DNA from: Bacillota bacterium
Lineage (GTDB): Bacteria; Bacillota; Clostridia; Acetivibrionales; JANLFN01
Reading direction: 5' to 3'
NCBI GenBank assembly: GCA_030705825.1
Contig: JAUZPR010000002.1
Span: 6,101-70,100 of the forward strand
Length of the DNA stretch: 64,000 nucleotides
Part shown: piece by piece, positions 7,441 to 58,017 of the stretch
How positions within the stretch are numbered: position 1 is the first letter of the stretch
Layout: each line of letters begins with the position of its first letter
Notes under the pieces: model-generated
What the model saw: only the letters and a program-made list of their open reading frames with translations
What the model was told of the DNA's origin: nothing
Databases searched by the model: none
Program-made: the position numbers and the translations under genes

Positions 7441-8628
7441 TTATTTAAAGAAGCTGTTCAACTGATCATCCGTTAATGTGGCATCCAGTGCTGCTGTAGA
7501 AGGCTGGCCCTGTCCAAGCTTAGCTGCGTCGTCAAGCTTTATAGCTTTTGTCAGGCTGTAGCCTTTCATCCATACTGCATTCGGATCGCCATCCTTAGTA
7601 ACAACATATGGCGGGTCAAGCATGATAGCATTCTTAAGGCTTGGATTCAGAGGATTAGCCTGCATTACACCATCTTTAAGCTGTTTTCCCTGAAGAAGTC
7701 TGATTGTTATTCCAAGTACGTCTGCCGACATACCAGGCGCATACGGTACACCGATTGTGTTAAGATCAGGTGTCTGTGCCCATTTGTTGAGGAATCCAAA
7801 GGTATAGTCACCTGTCATAACCGGAGGCTTTTTACCTGCTGTTTCATAAGCTCTGAGTACACCTTCTGCCATAACGTCCTGTTCAAGTATTCCGTCAAAA
7901 TTCTTATATGTGTTGATAAATGTTGACATTACTGACTGTGCTTCTGTTTCAGACCATTTGCCTGGTGCTGAAGCAAGTACTTTTATTCCGGGGTATTTGC
8001 TGAGAACATCCTTAGCTGCATTTACACGCAATGTATCTGCTGTATTTCCAGGCAATCCGGTAATTTCAACTATGTTGCCTTTTCCTTTTAACTGTTCTGC
8101 CATCCAAGTTGTCTGAATTCTCCAAAAAGCATCATTGTTACCTATAACTGCATAGGTTCCGTCATATGCTGCAGGGTCGTTTGTAATTATTACAAGAATC
8201 CCCTGTGCTTTTGCCTTTGCTATAACAGGTCCAAGTGAAGTTGCTGATACCGGGTCAATCATCAAAGCATCTACGCCGCTGCTTATCAATGTGTTTATCT
8301 GGTTGAGCTGTTGAGTTACGTCTGCATTACAGCTTACAACCTGAAAATCTTTAATTATTCCTGCATCCTTATACTTCTGGGCAGCTTTCTGGAAATCATC
8401 AACAAACTGGCTGCGCCATGTGTTTCCTATATAACCGTTGGCAAATCCTATTGTAAAACCGCTTTGCTTTGCTGTAGTACTAGCTGCTGGAGTTGAAGAA
8501 CTGCTACTGGCTGCTGAAACCGAGTTTGAAGAACTTGTACCGGTTGAGGAACTGCCGCATGCTGCAAGGCTTAATACCAAAACCATTGCTGTTATTACTG
8601 CTAATACTTTAAAAACTGTTCTTCTCAT
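7441..8628 (-). CDS. ABC transporter substrate-binding lipoprotein (periplasmic-binding-protein type I)
   Basis: Signal peptide plus lipobox LSLAAC, a Ser/Thr-rich linker, then a sugar-binding fold. AAGGAGG RBS. Confidence 0.85.
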   Translation of the reverse strand: MRRTVFKVLAVITAMVLVLSLAACGSSSTGTSSSNSVSAASSSSSTPAASTTAKQSGFTIGFANGYIGNTWRSQFVDDFQKAAQKYKDAGIIKDFQVVSCNADVTQQLNQINTLISSGVDALMIDPVSATSLGPVIAKAKAQGILVIITNDPAAYDGTYAVIGNNDAFWRIQTTWMAEQLKGKGNIVEITGLPGNTADTLRVNAAKDVLSKYPGIKVLASAPGKWSETEAQSVMSTFINTYKNFDGILEQDVMAEGVLRAYETAGKKPPVMTGDYTFGFLNKWAQTPDLNTIGVPYAPGMSADVLGITIRLLQGKQLKDGVMQANPLNPSLKNAIMLDPPYVVTKDGDPNAVWMKGYSLTKAIKLDDAAKLGQGQPSTAALDATLTDDQLNSFFK

Positions 8629-23580: not shown

Positions 23581-23597
23581 CAAATCCACTCCTATTT

Positions 23598-23713
23598 CTA
23601 GCTTCCGAAGTTAGCTGACGGGTTCGGGTAATAGGATCACCCCTACCATCCTTAAGGATGGATTAGCCCCACTATTTGGTTCCTCCGTACCTCTTTTTTC
23701 AAGAGGATTCAGC
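23598..23713 (-). promoter_or_regulatory. c-di-AMP riboswitch (ydaO/yuaA motif)
   Basis: Minus strand reads GAAUCC...ACGGAGGAACC...GGGGCUAAUCC...GGGGUGAUCC...ACCCGAACCCGUCAGCUAACUUCGGAAGC. This matches the two pseudo-symmetric ydaO halves. The motif lies upstream of a cell-wall hydrolase, which is typical. Confidence 0.85.
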
Positions 23714-23738
23714 TTAATGAAATTTTACATCCACGAAT

Positions 23739-23767: not shown

Positions 23768-23911
23768 ACCTCAATTGAGAAATTTTTCATGTATATGGAC
23801 GTTTAACCAGTATAATTACCGTATTTATACATGCAGCATTCAATATTCATTATATGTTATATCGGCAATAATGGATTCTTTTAATAGAATTTCCCGGGGC
23901 ACTTAATATAA

Positions 23912-23983
23912 GCGGTTATAAAATAAGAAATTCTATGGTTTTGTTCCATTCTCACTCGTGAGAACACACAAAAAAGAATTTCT
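23912..23983 (-). repeat. 72-nt hairpin module, copy 1 (terminator-like)
   Basis: 69/72 identical to 24001-24072. Nested inverted repeats AGAAATTCT/AGAATTTCT, TTTTG/CAAAA and TTCTCAC/GTGAGAA. On the minus strand it is followed by TATTTTAT. Confidence 0.7.
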
Positions 23984-24000
23984 CTTTCCACTTGATAAAC

Positions 24001-24072
24001 GCAGCTATAAAATAAGAAATTCTATGATTTTGTTCCATTCTCACTCGTGAGAACACACAAAAAAGAATTTCT
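24001..24072 (-). repeat. 72-nt hairpin module, copy 2 (terminator-like, abuts the GNAT stop)
   Basis: Same module. Here the outer stem extends to about 23 bp (GCAGCTATAAAATAAGAAATTCT / AGAATTTCTAATTTTATAGCTGC) and reaches into the GNAT stop region. Confidence 0.7.
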
Positions 24073-24076
24073 AATT

Positions 24077-24601
24077 TTATAGCTGCTTATACATTATAAT
24101 CACATTTTGGGGTTTGTCATTTAGTTTCAGATGGTTTTCCATTACTCTCATTTCCTTGAAGTCCAGCTTGTTCCAGAATGCTCGACCCTGTACATTCTCT
24201 TCTACTACCGAAATATATATGCTTTTATATTTATGGTTAATATTCAGATGATTGATTAACAGGTTTACTGCACGGCTTCCGTATCCTATGTTCTGGAAAT
24301 TGGTGTCTATCACTATGGAACTTATCCATATGGCATCGCTGCTCTTATATCCGACACTTCCCTTTAGTATTCCAACCATACAATCATTAGCTGCTGTATA
24401 AATTCCAACAAAGAACTCATGACTGTTGATAGCAACTTCAGCATATTTTCGTGTCATTTCCTGAAGGCTGATTTCAGAATCAATTCCTGTAGCATATTTG
24501 TATTCCTCTATTTTATTGTACCACTTAAGGATAAGGGGCAGGTCGTCACGCTTTATATCCCTAAAGCGAAGCACCTCATTTTGTATATTAAGTGGAAACA
24601 T
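24077..24601 (-). CDS. GNAT-family N-acetyltransferase
   Basis: Acetyltransferase fold motifs (QNIGYGSRAV..., GRAFWNKLDF). ATG at 24601 follows AGGAGG. Confidence 0.75.
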   Translation of the reverse strand: MFPLNIQNEVLRFRDIKRDDLPLILKWYNKIEEYKYATGIDSEISLQEMTRKYAEVAINSHEFFVGIYTAANDCMVGILKGSVGYKSSDAIWISSIVIDTNFQNIGYGSRAVNLLINHLNINHKYKSIYISVVEENVQGRAFWNKLDFKEMRVMENHLKLNDKPQNVIIMYKQL

Positions 24602-33570: not shown

Positions 33571-33585
33571 ATTAACAATAAAATT

Positions 33586-33710
33586 CAATCTTCAGGGATG
33601 GGTGAAATTCCCTATCGGCGGTAATATGGCCTGACCATTAGCCCGCGAGCGAAAGCAGACCCGGTTTGATTCCGGGGCCGACGGTAAAGTCCGGATGAAA
33701 GAAGAAGTTC
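33586..33710 (+). promoter_or_regulatory. FMN riboswitch (RFN element)
   Basis: CAGGGATGGGTGAAATTCCCTATCGGCGGTA...AGCCCGCGAGC...CCGGTTTGATTCCGGGGCCGACGGTAAAGTCCGGATGAAAGAAGAAG matches conserved RFN blocks. Confidence 0.9.
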
Positions 33711-44162: not shown

Positions 44163-45551
44163 TTAGAATTCAAATTTTCCTTCAAAATATTTATCAAGTT
44201 CATCAATTTTAATTCTTATCTGCTGCATTGAATCTCTTTCCCTGATAGTAACACTCTGGTCATTCAGGGAATCGAAATCAAAGGTTATGCAGTACGGAGT
44301 TCCTATTTCATCCTGCCTTCTGTATCTTTTTCCGATACTTCCGGTTTCATCATATTCGCAAACGTACTTCTTAATAAGATTACTGTATACTTTGTTGGCA
44401 TCGTCACTAAGTTTCTTGGACAACGGAAGAACTGCAATCTTAACAGGTGCTATTGCCGGATGGAACTTAAGGACAGTTCTTACATCCCCTTCGGCTACCT
44501 CTTCTTCGGTATACGCATCACAAAGGAATGCAAGTGCAACCCTGTCCGCTCCAAGTGAAGGTTCAATACAATATGGAACATACTTTTCATTGGTGGCAGG
44601 ATCAAAATATGAGAGATCATCCTTTGAATATTCCATATGCTGCTTAAGGTCGAAGTCAGTTCTGTCTGCAATTCCCCATAATTCGCCCCAACCGAACGGG
44701 AACATGAATTCTATATCAGTAGTTGCATTGCTGTAGTGTGAAAGCTCTTCCTTGTTGTGATCACGGAGTTTAAGGCTATCAGGCTTTATTCCGAGAGTCA
44801 GAAGCCAATTATGGCAGTATTCCTTCCAATACTTGAACCATTCCAGATCCTTACCGGGCTCGCAGAAGAATTCAAGCTCCATCTGTTCAAACTCACGTGT
44901 CCTGAAAGTAAAGTTTCCAGGTGTTATCTCATTCCTGAAGGATTTACCTATTTGTCCTATACCGAAAGGAATCTTCCTTCGTGTAGTCCTCTGAACATTT
45001 TTAAAATTAACAAATATACCCTGGGCAGTTTCCGGTCGTAAAAAGATTTCAGCCTTTGAATCTTCGGTAACTCCCTGGAAGGTCTTGAACATAAGATTGA
45101 ACTTCCTTATTTCAGTGAAGTTTGCAGATCCGCAGTCAGGACATTTTATGCCCTTATCCTTTATGTACTGCATCAACTGGTCATTTTTCCAGCCATCTAC
45201 CTGGACATCTATATTATTTTGCTTGTTCCATTCTTCTATAAGCTTATCTGCCCTGTGTCTTGTCTTGCAATCCTTACAGTCTATAAGAGGATCACTGAAG
45301 CCTCCTACATGGCCTGATGCAACCCACACCTGGGGATTCATCAGAATTGCGCAGTCAACACCTACATTATATGGGCTTTCCTGAACAAATTTTTTCCACC
45401 ATGCCTTCTTTACATTGTTTTTGAGTTCCACACCCAATGGGCCGTAATCCCATGCATTTGCCAATCCGCCGTATATATCCGAGCCCGGATATACAAAACC
45501 TCTGTTTTTAGCCATAGAAACAATTTTATCCATTGTAATTTCAGTTGCCAT
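44163..45551 (-). CDS. glyQS: Glycine--tRNA ligase (dimeric GlyQS type)
   Basis: Full-length class II GlyRS similarity ([36 protein letters not shown]). AAGGAGGA RBS. Confidence 0.95.
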
Positions 45552-46755
45552 GTTTATCCTCCTTAATTATCAGTCCGGTTACTTCATCCAGTACTCTGCC
45601 GGCAACTTCCAGTTTGCTCATAAGCGGAAGCTCTATAACTGAACTGTCTTTTTTAATTATCTTTACTATATTCGTATCCGTTCCAAAACCGGCACCTTCC
45701 ATGGTTACATCATTTGCCATAATCATATCAAAATTCTTGGATACAAGCTTTGATTTGGCATTTTCGATAAGGTCCCGTGTTTCTGCACATGTACCTACAA
45801 CTATTCTACTGCCTTTAACCCTACCCAGTTCCCTGGCGATGTCAGGGTTTTTAACCAGTTCGATTAACATTTCGTCACCGGTCTTTTTTATCTTATTCTC
45901 AGCCACCTGCTTGCATTTATAATCTGCAACTGCAGCAACGAGAATTATAATATCAAAATCCCTGTAACATTTCATTACTTCCGCATACATCTCATCTGCA
46001 GTTATTACCCTGGTAACCTCTGTATTCTGAGGTACAGGCTGATCAACAGGTCCAGATATTATCTTTACCTGAGCACCTCTGTTTGCCGCTTCTTGCGCAA
46101 AAGCGTAACCCATTTTACCCGATGAGTGGTTTGAGATATACCTCACCGGGTCGATTGCTTCTCTTGTTGGTCCGGCTGTAATAAGAACCTTCATCCCGTA
46201 CATATCATTTTTATCATTAAAAATATTGTTTAACCTGTTGACTATATTGACAGGTTCCGGAAGCCTCCCTTTGCCCGAACTGCCTTCTGCCATCGTTCCG
46301 GTTTCAGGCTCCATAAAAAGATATCCAAGCTTTTCAAGAGTTTTTATATTATTCTGTACAATCGGGTTGGCATACATATTAAAATTCATTGCAGGAACAA
46401 ATAGAAGCTTTGCTTTTGAAGCCATAACTGTTGTTGTCAGCATATCATCCGCAATTCCGTTGGCTATTTTTCCTATCACATTTGCTGTAGCAGGTGCTAT
46501 GACTATAATATCCGCTTTTTCAGCCATTGAAATATGTTGAATATTCCATTGCTTGGGCTCGTCAAACATATCGGTCACAACAGGATTATGGGAAATTGAC
46601 TGGAATGTCAAAGGAGAAACAAACTTAGCAGCGTTATCTGTCATAACAACATGTACATCTGCTCCCTGTTTCTTTAATCTGCTTACAACATCAACTACCT
46701 TATATGCAGCAATGCCGCCGCAAACTCCGACAACTACATTTTTGCCCTTCAACAT
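45541..46755 (-). CDS. coaBC: Bifunctional phosphopantothenoylcysteine decarboxylase/synthetase
   Basis: Flavoprotein N-domain (VCGGIAAYK) plus the DFP/CoaB C-domain. ATG at 46755 is 8 nt after GGGAGG. The track start at 46764 is a GTG within the RBS. Confidence 0.92.
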
Positions 46756-46777
46756 CCTATTCACCTCCCGAAAAAAC

Positions 46778-46805
46778 AGTTCAGGGTTCGGAGTTGGGAT
46801 TTCAG
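46778..46805 (+). repeat. Phased heptamer array (AGTTCAG GGTTCGG AGTTGGG ATTTCAG)
   Basis: Four contiguous 7-nt units read directly from the plus strand. They are partly complementary to the array at 46913-46947. Confidence 0.8.
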
Positions 46806-46912
46806 GGGAAAACCTTTATAATAATGCATTCTCATAACAAAGGACAATTGGTATAATCCAGTTTTGGTAATTACCTTTTGTCCAATATGAAGAAACTAAA
46901 TTAAGATTTAGG

Positions 46913-46947
46913 TTTAACTCCTAACTCTGAACTCTTAACTCCGAACT
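46913..46947 (-). repeat. Phased heptamer array (AGTTCGG AGTTAAG AGTTCAG AGTTAGG AGTTAAA)
   Basis: Five perfectly phased AGTTNNN units on the minus strand. They start at the base after the rpoZ stop codon (46948-46950). Confidence 0.85.
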
Positions 46948-47160
46948 TTATTTTATGCCGCTCTTTGTTCTTACGTAAGCTATCTTGTTTTCGCTTATTT
47001 CATTTACAGCTACGGTAACAGCTTTATCGGAACTGCACTTTGTAAGTTTATGTGCTCCATCAGCAAGCTGACGTGCTCTTTTTGCAGCAGCTACTACCAG
47101 AGTATACCTGCTGTCCATTTTTTTCATCAATTCGCCTATAGCCGGTTCAATCATTGACAT
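46948..47160 (-). CDS. rpoZ: DNA-directed RNA polymerase omega subunit
   Basis: SRYTLVVAAAKRARQL omega signature and gmk-rpoZ synteny. Confidence 0.9.
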   Translation of the reverse strand: MSMIEPAIGELMKKMDSRYTLVVAAAKRARQLADGAHKLTKCSSDKAVTVAVNEISENKIAYVRTKSGIK

Positions 47161-51373: not shown

Positions 51374-51408
51374 AGTGTACAGTTGACAATGGACAGTTGA
51401 CAGTTAAA
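51374..51408 (+). repeat. Phased heptamer array (AGTGTAC AGTTGAC AATGGAC AGTTGAC AGTTAAA)
   Basis: Five contiguous 7-nt units on the plus strand next to the prmA RBS. It is an inverted partner of 51456-51510. Confidence 0.85.
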
Positions 51409-51455
51409 ATAAATATTTTCAAAATATAATTTAATATTTTAAAAAGAGCAACTTA

Positions 51456-51510
51456 AAAAACTGTACATTGTACACTGTAAACTGTACACTCCACTTGTAC
51501 ACTGTACACT
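51456..51510 (-). repeat. Phased heptamer array (AGTGTAC AGTGTAC AAGTGG AGTGTAC AGTTTAC AGTGTAC AATGTAC AGTTTTT)
   Basis: Eight units on the minus strand (one is 6 nt). The array starts 3 nt after the dnaJ stop codon (51514-51516). Confidence 0.85.
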
Positions 51511-57959: not shown

Positions 57960-57973
57960 AATTGACAATTGAA
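57960..57973 (+). repeat. Short heptamer array (AATTGAC AATTGAA)
   Basis: Two units next to the hemW RBS. TTGACAATTGA (57962-57972) is perfectly complementary to TCAATTGTCAA (57998-58008). Confidence 0.7.
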
Positions 57974-57982
57974 TCTTGTCCT

Positions 57983-58017
57983 TTTAACTGTCCTATGTCA
58001 ATTGTCAACTTTCAACT
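57983..58017 (-). repeat. Phased heptamer array (AGTTGAA AGTTGAC AATTGAC ATAGGAC AGTTAAA)
   Basis: Five contiguous units on the minus strand, starting 3 nt after the lepA stop codon (58021-58023). Very similar to the plus-strand array at 51374-51408. Confidence 0.85.

What the first reader, a model, noticed from the sequence alone, without database searches (positions are those of the whole stretch)
46756..46947. rpoZ|coaBC spacer: five perfectly phased AGTTNNN heptamers abut the rpoZ stop codon and face a complementary four-unit array followed by a U-run and the coaBC RBS
The minus strand reads AGTTCGG AGTTAAG AGTTCAG AGTTAGG AGTTAAA from the base after the rpoZ stop. About 107 nt downstream, the transcript carries the complement of AGTTCAG GGTTCGG AGTTGGG ATTTCAG, followed immediately by UUUUUU and then GGGAGG-N8-AUG of coaBC.

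In one register I find 16/18 complementary positions. This gives a long-range stem plus a U-tract just before a ribosome-binding site. That arrangement could act as an attenuator, a processing site or an insulator between rpoZ and coaBC-glyQS. The core also holds a perfect 10-bp palindrome, GGTAATTACC (46866-46875).
Basis: seen in the sequence. Interest (0 to 1): 0.55.

Follow-up and report, generated by a model that had tools for sequence, protein, structure and literature searches.

The report
Paired inverted heptamer-repeat arrays between genes
The gap between rpoZ and coaBC holds two fast-evolving arrays of 7-base repeats that face each other and can zip the whole gap into one long RNA hairpin; this is a Clostridial version of the poorly understood heptamer repeats known from other bacteria, not a classical terminator.

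Summary
Five phased AGTTNNN units (46947-46913, minus strand) start at the base after the rpoZ stop codon. A four-unit complementary array (46805-46778) lies 107 nt downstream, followed by T6, GGGAGG-N8-ATG of coaBC. The pattern occurs 0 times in 100 shuffles. The distal array is the only non-self partner in the 64 kb.

It is not a one-off. The dnaJ|prmA and lepA|hemW spacers in the same window have the same layout: stop codon, (NNN)AGTT-type array, core, AACT(NNN)-type array, RBS. Sister species (74% CoaBC identity) keep arrays in the same spacers but with other unit types, and both arms change type together. Strains with 99.7-99.9% identical flanks differ in copy number (0-11) or carry a different spacer allele. 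Relatives at 70% identity or less lack arrays.

My reading: these are hypermutable heptanucleotide repeat arrays, akin to TAACTGA repeats. Here they are paired so that the transcript forms a long intercistronic stem around a conserved inner hairpin. The stem most likely acts as an mRNA processing, stability or insulation element.

The attenuator idea (stem plus U-run) is poorly supported, and the 10-bp palindrome is at chance level. Function is unproven and a neutral satellite remains a serious rival. I rate it a new variant of a known kind, of moderate interest.

The parts
46948..47160 (-). rpoZ (RNA polymerase omega, 70 aa); its stop TAA 46950-46948 abuts the proximal array
   Evidence: ORF list. 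Orthologues in syntenic loci carry PF01192 RNA_pol_Rpb6.
46913..46947 (-). Proximal array: AGTTCGG AGTTAAG AGTTCAG AGTTAGG AGTTAAA (5 heptamers); 5' arm of the outer stem
46842..46885 (-). Inner hairpin TTGGACAA...TTGTCC. Its closing stem is the only part of the spacer conserved in sister species. It contains the chance-level palindrome GGTAATTACC (46875-46866) and is followed by the U-rich TTTGTTAT (46841-46834).
   Evidence: Unique in the window. Conserved ATATTGGACAA / TTGTCC in six spacer haplotypes. A 15-bp consensus hairpin in the sister clade includes G-U pairs that exist only in the sense RNA.
46778..46805 (-). Distal array CTGAAAT CCCAACT CCGAACC CTGAACT, the complement of four AGTT-type units; 3' arm of the outer stem
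   Evidence: (I15).
46771..46776 (-). T6 / U-run between the distal array and the RBS. It can pair with AAAATAAAG at the end of rpoZ.
   Evidence: No local hairpin upstream of it. No terminator call on this strand.
46764..46769 (-). Shine-Dalgarno GGGAGG of coaBC, 8 nt before the ATG at 46755
45541..46755 (-). coaBC (404 aa). It overlaps the start of glyQS (44163-45551) by 11 nt.
   Evidence: P0001 is 100% identical over 404 aa, with PF04127 and PF02441.
51459..51510 (-). Second family member, dnaJ|prmA spacer. Proximal array AGTGTAC AGTGTAC AAGTGG AGTGTAC AGTTTAC AGTGTAC AATGTAC AGTT, starting 3 nt after the dnaJ stop.
   Evidence: (I2). Spacer fold -41 kcal/mol, z = -3.5.
51374..51405 (-). 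dnaJ|prmA distal array AACTGTC AACTGTC CATTGTC AACTGTA CACT, 7 nt before the prmA RBS GGGGTG
57983..58017 (-). Third family member, lepA|hemW spacer. AGTTGAA AGTTGAC AATTGAC ATAGGAC AGTTAAA, starting 3 nt after the lepA stop.
   Evidence: The centroid fold pairs it with 57970-57960 (z = -2.3).
57960..57970 (-). lepA|hemW distal partner AATTGTCAATT, directly before the hemW RBS

Best explanation
The spacer is a lineage-specific, hypermutable heptanucleotide simple-sequence-repeat element.

**Shown:**
- Two inverted arrays fill the spacer from the rpoZ stop codon to about 8-16 nt before the coaBC Shine-Dalgarno.
- They enclose a conserved inner hairpin.
- The same layout occurs in the dnaJ|prmA and lepA|hemW spacers of the window, in the orthologous spacers of sister species, and in unrelated Clostridia.
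- Arrays change unit type, copy number and even whole allele between near-identical strains, and the two arms of a pair keep matching.

**Inferred:**
- The arrays arise and turn over by replication slippage and by inverted copying or recombination.
- In the rpoZ-coaBC-glyQS transcript the arms pair into a long, register-shiftable outer stem. This stem packages the roughly 180-nt spacer into one hairpin.
- That hairpin acts at the RNA level as an intercistronic processing, stability or insulation element. It could be a double-strand RNase target and/or a 3'-exonuclease barrier that uncouples rpoZ from coaBC-glyQS. Array length or type would set the strength of the effect.
- The closest experimental precedent is the Haemophilus influenzae hmw 5'-UTR. 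There a transcribed (ATCTTTC)n heptamer array forms a long hairpin that RNase III processes.
- The U-run is most simply the AU-rich pre-SD segment and the complement of the A-rich end of rpoZ, not a dedicated terminator tail.
For: - **Reality and uniqueness of the arrays and their pairing:**
- **Family in the window:**
- **Period 7 dominates:** it is the only enriched period in the window. In 1.5 Mb of Clostridial loci there are 34 intergenic period-7 arrays against 0-5 for periods 5, 6 and 8-11.
- **Orthologous spacers in sister species carry arrays of other unit types,** and in each lineage at least one proximal array is matched in unit type by the distal array. The types are CNG in the window, GAC in L084/L095 and TAC in L081/L091/L096. 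L081's GAC-type proximal array has no partner. Own-versus-cross duplex energies and shuffles give z = -3.8 to -6.6.
- **Hypermutability:** strains 99.7-99.9% identical across prmA..rpoZ have 0, 4, 4, 6, 8, 11 and 11 GAGAATT units in dnaJ|prmA. L091 has a different rpoZ|coaBC allele (263 against 170 nt). L095 has one extra distal unit.
- **Lineage restriction:** arrays are absent from relatives at 70% CoaBC identity or less, which have short spacers or ordinary hairpins.
- **RNA-level hint:** the sense strand folds better than the antisense in 9 of 12 array-bearing spacers, with 85 against 36 G-U pairs. The inner hairpin keeps G-U and U-G pairs and shows one C-G to U-G change.
- **Orientation is stereotyped:** AACT-type arrays lie before starts (8, against 1 apparent AGTT case in a 74-nt spacer). 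AGTT-type arrays lie after stops (5 plus this one, against 0).
- **Precedent for a heptamer SSR hairpin processed by RNase III:** PMC12721329.
Against: - No expression data exist. The organism is an uncultured MAG with no conspecific sequence in any collection searched.
- For this particular spacer the antisense strand folds better than the sense strand (-60.4 against -53.8 kcal/mol), so RNA-level selection is not visible here.
- The outer stem is imperfect: 17/20 or 21/28, as 4-5 bp blocks separated by small internal loops.
- In the sister clade the dnaJ|prmA spacer holds many AGTT-type arrays with no complementary partner at all (AACT count 0). Pairing is therefore not obligatory for the arrays to persist.
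- Arm co-variation could come from DNA-level inverted copying or allele replacement rather than selection on RNA.
- The sense bias in G-U pairs could partly reflect strand-biased C-to-T mutation.
Confidence: 0.45

Rival explanations
1. Neutral or selfish satellite. The arrays are slippage-prone heptanucleotide microsatellites that accumulate wherever non-coding DNA tolerates them, bounded only by the stop codon and the RBS. Inverted partners arise mechanically, by fold-back or template-switch copying next to a pre-existing hairpin. No function is selected.
For: - Copy number and whole alleles differ between strains 99.7-99.9% identical in the flanks.
- There is a 90-nt higher-order amplification in L095.
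- Unpaired arrays exist.
- Arrays are absent from slightly more distant relatives.
- The phylogenetic distribution is sporadic and heptamers predominate, as reported for long SSRs in prokaryotes (Mrazek 2007, as summarised in PMC4679880).
- The window's own hairpin is not sense-biased.
Against: - Orientation relative to stop and start codons is stereotyped, even for unpaired arrays. The same holds for TAACTGA repeats in Beggiatoaceae.
- Within the units of this spacer, AGTT is conserved at 34 of 36 positions while positions 5-6 vary. Uniform decay of slippage copies would not give this (my count).
- There is an excess of sense-strand G-U pairs across spacers.
- Arrays persist in the same housekeeping spacers across species with 88% identical flanks.
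Confidence: 0.3
2. Single-stranded protein or ribosome binding sites. The AACT(N3) array just upstream of the SD, and perhaps the AGTT(N3) array after the stop, is read as a periodic motif by an RNA-binding factor that tunes translation initiation. This was proposed for TAACTGA repeats, with S1, Csp or CsrA-like proteins as candidates. The complementary array acts as a decoy or anti-site.
For: - AACT-type arrays end 11-24 nt before start codons in several unrelated Clostridia without any partner array (L006, L014, L024).
- TAACTGA repeats have the same position and orientation.
- The AGTT/AACT core is conserved within units.
Against: - Unit sequences are very diverse between and within genomes: GAGAATT, GATGAAT, GGAATTA, GGGAGTA, TAACCCG. 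That is hard to reconcile with one specific binder.
- Single AACTG/CAGTT motifs are not enriched upstream of other genes in the window.
- A canonical SD is present, unlike in Beggiatoaceae.
Confidence: 0.12
3. Intrinsic terminator or attenuator. The long-range stem followed by U6 terminates or attenuates transcription before coaBC.
For: - U6 lies 1-9 nt after the 3' arm.
- More distant relatives have ordinary terminator-like hairpins plus T-runs in this spacer (L003, L094, L097), so a transcriptional boundary after rpoZ is plausible.
- The inner hairpin is followed by the U-rich TTTGTTAT.
Against: - There is no local hairpin before the U-run.
- No terminator is called on this strand, although canonical ones are found elsewhere, for example 49255-49232.
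- A stem closing a roughly 110-nt loop is kinetically unlike known intrinsic terminators (established knowledge).
- The U-run position is not conserved relative to the array in sister species.
- The two other family members lack a U-run.
Confidence: 0.08
4. MITE-like mobile insertion. The whole unit, with the arrays as terminal inverted repeats around a core, transposed into an ancestrally short spacer.
For: - Distant relatives have 24-34 nt spacers.
- In L006 two different spacers share about 100 nt (proximal array plus core) at about 90% identity.
Against: - The three elements in the window have unrelated cores, and the core motif is unique.
- No target-site duplication is evident.
- The core is orthologously conserved while the 'termini' change, the opposite of a MITE.
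Confidence: 0.05

Closest known systems
TAACTGA heptamer direct repeats of marine Beggiatoaceae, some Cyanobacteria and Bacteroidetes (MacGregor 2015, PMC4679880)
   Same: - Tandem 7-nt units with an AACT core.
- Intergenic, and mostly in 'forward' orientation ending a few nt upstream of start codons.
- Some overlap or follow stop codons in reverse orientation.
- Two to six copies, often interrupted by related heptamers.
- Function unknown, with translational or post-transcriptional roles proposed.
- Sister-species distal arrays here read AACTGTA AACTGTA ... AACTGA.
   Different: - That paper does not mention Firmicutes or Clostridia and found only one inverted set among 170. Here arrays typically come as inverted pairs able to form a long hairpin.
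- Here the unit is degenerate (AACTNNN) rather than one exact heptamer.
- Here a canonical SD follows the array.
Haemophilus influenzae hmw1A/hmw2A 5'-UTR (ATCTTTC)n repeat hairpin processed by RNase III (PMC12721329)
   Same: - A heptanucleotide SSR in a transcribed non-coding region.
- One arm of a long RNA hairpin is the repeat array.
- Repeat number varies between strains and tunes expression.
   Different: - There the right arm is a G-rich non-repeat region. Here both arms are arrays.
- There it is a 5'-UTR of a phase-variable adhesin in a pathogen. Here it lies in intercistronic spacers of housekeeping operons.
- RNase III cleavage and an expression effect are untested here.
Long simple sequence repeats of prokaryotes (Mrazek et al. 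2007), cyanobacterial STRR heptamers, and Geobacter metallireducens heptanucleotide x4-5 elements (PMC2700814)
   Same: - Heptanucleotide units are the commonest long SSR class.
- Phylogenetic distribution is sporadic and location is intergenic.
- Slippage origin has been proposed.
- Geobacter has families of four or five tandem heptamers, for example MTYCTGA.
- STRR comparison rests on my own recollection of Mazel et al. 1990.
   Different: None of these descriptions, as far as I could read them, reports the stop-codon-abutting / RBS-abutting inverted pair architecture, or arm co-variation.
REP/BIME-type intercistronic hairpins of enterobacteria (established knowledge, not tested here)
   Same: They are intergenic, form stable RNA hairpins inside operons, and stabilise the upstream cistron against 3' exonucleases.
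   Different: REPs are dispersed copies of one conserved 20-40 nt palindrome linked to a RAYT transposase. Here there is no shared sequence between sites beyond the 7-nt periodicity and the AGTT/AACT bias.

Membership tests
Heptanucleotide SSR arrays / TAACTGA-like repeats | Tandem direct repeats with a 7-nt period, beyond chance | tested here: met
   five phased units, 0 of 100 shuffles; period 7 is the only enriched period.
Heptanucleotide SSR arrays / TAACTGA-like repeats | Unit is exactly TAACTGA | tested here: not met
   Units are AACTCCG / AACCCTG / AACTG and similar. Only the AACT core is shared. Sister species have AACTGTA/AACTGTC and a terminal AACTGA.
Heptanucleotide SSR arrays / TAACTGA-like repeats | Intergenic, forward orientation, ending shortly upstream of a start codon | tested here: met
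   The distal array ends 22 nt before the coaBC ATG. Census: 8 AACT-type pre-start arrays against 1 apparent AGTT-type.
Heptanucleotide SSR arrays / TAACTGA-like repeats | Copy-number polymorphism between close strains (slippage) | tested here: inconclusive
   Shown for sister-species arrays (0-11 GAGAATT units; +1 AACTGTC). No conspecific sequence of the window organism exists in the collections searched.
Intrinsic (Rho-independent) terminator | Compact G+C-rich stem-loop ending 0-2 nt before the U-tract | tested here: not met
   No call on the minus strand in the spacer. The 75 nt before and including the U-run have no hairpin adjoining it. Only a stem closing about 110 nt reaches the U-run.
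Intrinsic (Rho-independent) terminator | U-tract of at least 5 U | tested here: met
   T6 at 46776-46771.
Intrinsic (Rho-independent) terminator | Stem plus U-tract arrangement conserved in orthologous spacers | tested here: not met
   In L081, L084, L091, L095 and L096 the T-run lies 5' of the distal array.
SSR hairpin / RNase III cis-element (hmw type) | The repeat array forms one arm of a long, stable RNA hairpin | tested here: met
   In silico only: (z = -3.5 to -6.6).
SSR hairpin / RNase III cis-element (hmw type) | Cleavage by RNase III and an effect on expression of the downstream gene | not testable with these tools
   Needs end-mapping in wild type against an rnc mutant.
MITE / REP-like dispersed element | Several genomic copies sharing a conserved core and termini | tested here: not met
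   The cores of the three window elements are unrelated, and the core motif occurs once. L006 does show a shared core in two spacers.
Any curated RNA family (Rfam 15), including the T-box expected upstream of glyQS | Covariance-model match at or near the gathering score | tested here: not met
   The only matches in the window are FMN and c-di-AMP riboswitches elsewhere. The spacer gives only a chance snoRNA hit, E = 7.

The most novel reading that the evidence does not exclude
AACT-core heptamer arrays would be one cross-phylum class of strand-oriented post-transcriptional cis-elements, found in Beggiatoaceae, Cyanobacteria, Bacteroidetes and now Clostridia. They would be placed at gene boundaries, with the reverse orientation at the stop codon and the forward orientation at the start. 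In Clostridia they would be paired so that the stem can slip in 7-nt registers. This would give an evolvable rheostat that sets the expression ratio of neighbouring cistrons and is reset by slippage or allele swapping between near-identical strains.
Probability: 0.12. Interest if true: 0.75.

Novelty: new variant of a known kind. Interest (0 to 1): 0.5.

Why it matters
Heptanucleotide repeats are the commonest long simple repeats in bacteria. Outside a few phase-variable pathogen genes, their function is unknown.

This locus shows a regular architecture in Clostridia. The array abuts the stop codon, its complement abuts the RBS, and a conserved hairpin sits between them. The architecture lies inside core housekeeping operons (rpoZ-coaBC-glyQS, dnaJ-prmA, lepA-hemW).

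The arms co-vary between lineages, and turnover between strains is extreme. If the hairpin is functional, it would be a simple, rapidly evolvable way to tune intercistronic expression. It would also link the unexplained TAACTGA/STRR-type repeats to a concrete RNA mechanism. If it is neutral, it is a clean example of satellite DNA that fills every non-coding base between two genes.

Practical points: such spacers are strain-typing markers and assembly hazards in MAGs. Cultured carriers, such as the Clostridium tertium isolate behind locus L056, make the question testable.

Tried and rejected
- **Known RNA family or riboswitch, including a glyQS T-box:** none found.
- **Compact terminator before the U-run:** none found.
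- **The GGTAATTACC palindrome as a feature:** it is at chance frequency and not conserved.
- **Leader peptide or uORF:** a 24-codon sense ORF runs 46834-46761. It has no SD and is not conserved in sister spacers (my reading).
- **Shared mobile core (MITE):** not in this window, though L006 shows one.
- **Integron attC-like site (RYYYAAC...GTTRRRY):** the orientation of the GTT/AAC cores is the opposite (GTT...AAC) and no cassette context exists. I rejected this on sequence reading and my own knowledge.
- **Arrays as tandem -35 boxes:** AGTTGAC units contain TTGACA in sister species, but the window's units do not. Promoter-like hits are at background level, 23 against 20.6 expected.
- **AACTG/CAGTT singletons as a general pre-SD motif:** not enriched.
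- **Finding conspecific strains to measure polymorphism of this exact spacer:** this failed.
  - Exact look-ups of RpoZ and CoaBC returned nothing.
  - The metagenome scan gave at most 69% identity.
- **Covariation in the inner hairpin:** 15 pairs are conserved with no double changes in 5 sequences, so it is uninformative apart from one C-G to U-G change.

Full report
**What is there.**

All genes in this part of the window lie on the minus strand: yicC, remA, gmk, rpoZ (46948-47160), coaBC (45541-46755) and glyQS (44163-45551). The neighbouring genes are packed tightly, with gaps of 31, 22, -14 and -11 nt. The rpoZ|coaBC gap is 192 nt.

Reading the minus strand:
- The rpoZ stop TAA is followed at once by AGTTCGG AGTTAAG AGTTCAG AGTTAGG AGTTAAA (46947-46913).
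- After 107 nt comes CTGAAAT CCCAACT CCGAACC CTGAACT (46805-46778), the complement of four AGTT-type units.
- Then follow G, T6 (46776-46771), C, GGGAGG, 8 nt and the coaBC ATG.
- That ATG is the start used in the 100% identical database protein P0001, which comes from an NCBI MAG.

**Is it more than chance?**

- The five-unit phased pattern occurs once in the window and never in 100 dinucleotide shuffles.
- The three-unit version gives 5 hits against 0.5 expected, and four of them are in this spacer, on both strands.
- Period 7 is the only period with an excess of self-similarity in the window.
- The two arrays match in every in-phase register: 19/28, 21/28 and 17/21. Out-of-phase registers give only 4-8 matches. 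No other 28-mer in the window reaches 21/28 against the proximal array.
- The repeat finder reports 17/20.
- The whole spacer folds into a single long hairpin: -55.4 kcal/mol, z = -3.5.
- The 10-bp palindrome is real but unremarkable. There are 96 such palindromes in the window against 82 +/- 6 in shuffles.

**It is one of a family.**

Two more spacers in the window have the same layout:
- **dnaJ|prmA** has seven AGTGTAC-type units starting 3 nt after the stop. Its array AACTGTC AACTGTC CATTGTC AACTGTA CACT ends 7 nt before the RBS. The fold is -41 kcal/mol, z = -3.5.
- **lepA|hemW** has AGTTGAA AGTTGAC AATTGAC ATAGGAC AGTTAAA after the stop, and AATTGTCAATT before the RBS.

The cores between the arrays are unrelated to each other.

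**Relatives.**

The organism is an uncultured Clostridium-class MAG related to Acetivibrio.

*Sister species.* The nearest CoaBC proteins after the self-hit are 74-75% identical. Their contigs are fully syntenic. In these sister species the rpoZ|coaBC spacer again runs from an array that begins inside the rpoZ stop codon (TAGTTGTC AGTTGAC AGAGGAC...; TAGTTTAC AGTTGAC...; TAATTTAC AGTTAGC...) to a complementary array just before the RBS. The unit types differ: GAC-type in L084/L095 and TAC-type in L081/L091/L096, against the CNG-type of the window.

*The conserved part.* The only conserved part of the spacer is an inner hairpin, ATATTGGACAA...TTGTCC. In the sister clade it forms 15 conserved base pairs, including G-U and U-G pairs that exist only in the sense RNA.

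*The two arms match within a lineage, not across lineages.*
- The window's own duplex is -33.1 kcal/mol. Window arms combined with other lineages' arms give -14 to -20.
- L084's own duplex is -46.7, against -20 to -25 for cross combinations.
- Own pairs beat shuffled partners with z = -3.8 to -6.6.

*Relatives at 70% identity or less* have no arrays. These include the Acetivibrio isolate behind P0029. Their spacers are 24-34 nt or carry ordinary hairpins and T-runs.

**Hypervariability.**

- Seven contigs that are 99.7-99.9% identical over the 3.9-kb prmA..rpoZ coding block carry 0, 4, 4, 6, 8, 11 and 11 GAGAATT units in dnaJ|prmA.
- One of them, L091 (99.67% identical in the flanks), has an entirely different rpoZ|coaBC spacer allele, TAC-type and 263 nt instead of GAC-type and 170 nt. 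Both arms were exchanged together.
- L095 has one extra AACTGTC unit in the distal arm, and a roughly 90-nt higher-order module repeated three times in dnaJ|prmA.
- In the sister clade the dnaJ|prmA arrays are all of the AGTT orientation with no complementary partner (AACT count 0). Pairing is therefore frequent but not obligatory.

**Wider distribution and orientation.**

- In 1.5 Mb of Clostridial loci collected around prmA/coaBC, intergenic period-7 arrays number 34. Periods 5, 6 and 8-11 give 0-5.
- Several unrelated Clostridia show AACTGT-type arrays ending 11-24 nt before start codons. These include MAGs L006 and L024, Clostridium sp. SM-530-WT-3G (L014) and the C. tertium isolate (L056). 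Some also have a complementary array abutting the preceding stop codon.
- Orientation is stereotyped. AACT-type arrays lie before starts (8, against 1 apparent exception in a 74-nt spacer). AGTT-type arrays lie after stops (5 plus the present one, against 0). Several of these are orthologous sites, so the counts are not independent.
- Other unit types occur too: GATGAAT, GGAATTA, GGGAGTA and TAACCCG.
- In L006 two spacers share about 100 nt of array plus core at about 90% identity. This hints that such elements can spread between sites.

**How it most likely works.**

*Shown:* the anatomy, the periodicity, the arm matching across lineages, and the hypervariability.

*Inferred:*
- The arrays grow and shrink by replication slippage. 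This is the explanation proposed for the general predominance of heptanucleotide long SSRs in prokaryotes (Mrazek 2007, as summarised in PMC4679880).
- Partners arise by inverted copying or recombination.
- In the polycistronic transcript the arms pair, packaging the spacer into one hairpin whose base joins the stop codon region to the pre-SD region.
- The best functional guess is an intercistronic processing, stability or insulation element.

The closest experimental precedent is the H. influenzae hmw 5'-UTR. There a transcribed (ATCTTTC)n array forms one arm of a long hairpin that RNase III cleaves, and repeat number tunes expression (PMC12721329).

Weak RNA-level support: the sense strand folds better than the antisense in 9 of 12 array-bearing spacers, with 85 against 36 G-U pairs.

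Against: this very spacer is an exception (-53.8 sense against -60.4 antisense). Strand-biased mutation could also mimic the trend.

**The attenuator idea.**

- The U-run has no compact hairpin before it.
- In the best-energy register, 9 unpaired nt intervene between the stem and the U-run.
- The T-run is on the other side of the distal array in sister species, where it pairs with the AGTTAAAAA end of the proximal array.
- The other two family members lack a U-run.
- If there is a transcriptional boundary after rpoZ, the conserved inner hairpin with its U-rich tail (TTTGTTAT here; CTTTAGTTCTT in sister species) is a better candidate than the outer stem.

**Comparison with known systems.**

The nearest described phenomenon is the TAACTGA heptamer repeat of marine Beggiatoaceae, Cyanobacteria and Bacteroidetes (PMC4679880).
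- **Same:** 7-nt period, AACT core, forward orientation just upstream of start codons, occasional overlap with stop codons, and unknown function.
- **Different:** that study does not mention Firmicutes and found one inverted set among 170. Here inverted pairs are the rule in the window, the unit is degenerate, and a canonical SD follows.

Geobacter heptanucleotide elements (PMC2700814) and cyanobacterial STRR (my recollection) are further relatives in kind. No Rfam family matches.

**Verdict.**

This is a real, non-random feature. It is a new variant of a known kind: heptanucleotide SSR arrays, here as stop-abutting and RBS-abutting inverted pairs around a conserved hairpin in Clostridial housekeeping operons. 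The mechanism is unproven, and a neutral satellite remains a serious rival. Interest is moderate (0.5).

Noticed in passing
window 51374-51510 (-) and 57960-58017 (-): The dnaJ|prmA and lepA|hemW spacers carry the same architecture as the finding, with different units (AGTGTAC/AACTGTC and AGTTGAC/AATTGTCAATT). The layout is stop codon, AGTT-type heptamer array, core, AACT-type array, RBS.
   Followed up: yes
window 44163-45551 / 45541-46755 (-): glyQS starts 11 nt before the coaBC stop and has no T-box leader anywhere in the window. This is unusual for a Firmicute glyQS, whose T-box in Bacillus is the textbook example (my own knowledge). Its expression must therefore depend on whatever happens in the rpoZ|coaBC spacer or further upstream.
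   Followed up: partly
L084-L089, L091: dnaJ|prmA spacer (e.g. L088:5529-5880): The GAGAATT array varies between 0, 4, 6, 8 and 11 copies among contigs 99.7-99.9% identical in the flanking coding DNA. L089 has lost the GAC-type and GAGAATT arrays altogether.
   Followed up: yes
L091:9738-10000 versus L084:9831-10000: Two completely different rpoZ|coaBC spacer alleles (TAC-type, 263 nt; GAC-type, 170 nt) occur in genomes 99.67% identical in the adjacent coding block. This implies allele replacement by recombination or very old polymorphism.
   Followed up: partly
L095:1652-1963: A higher-order repeat: a roughly 90-nt module built from GAC-type and GATTAT-type heptamers, ending AGTTAAAGGC, is repeated three times in the dnaJ|prmA spacer. 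All units are in the AGTT orientation.
   Followed up: no
L006:10960-11140 and L006:18825-19015: Two different spacers share about 100 nt at about 90% identity: a GATGAAT array, a terminator-like AAAAAAAGCTTAnAGCTTTTT, and a GACATTGC..GCAATGTC hairpin. Their distal arrays differ. This is a dispersed element flanked by heptamer arrays.
   Followed up: partly
L035:1-169: About 24 tandem TAACCCG-type heptamers sit at a contig end and run straight into the hemW ATG with no Shine-Dalgarno. This resembles the Beggiatoaceae pattern.
   Followed up: no
L079:4656-4873 and 7447-7760: A GC-richer Clostridiales MAG has inverted pairs of other heptamers (GGAATTA x8 / TAATTCC x6; GGGAGTA / CCCTACT). One pair lies between convergent genes around GC-rich hairpins, so the architecture is not confined to operon-internal spacers.
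   Followed up: no
window 23585-23724 (-), 33584-33710 (+), 23907-24091: There is a c-di-AMP riboswitch (93 bits) and an FMN riboswitch (111 bits). A cluster of 28-nt direct and inverted repeats (89% complementary) lies just upstream of the c-di-AMP riboswitch.
   Followed up: no
window 46794-46857 (+): Two promoter-like matches (10/12, one with an extended -10 TG) lie on the antisense strand inside the spacer, and the antisense strand folds better than the sense strand here. Promoter-like hits are at background frequency in this AT-rich DNA, so this is probably chance.
   Followed up: no
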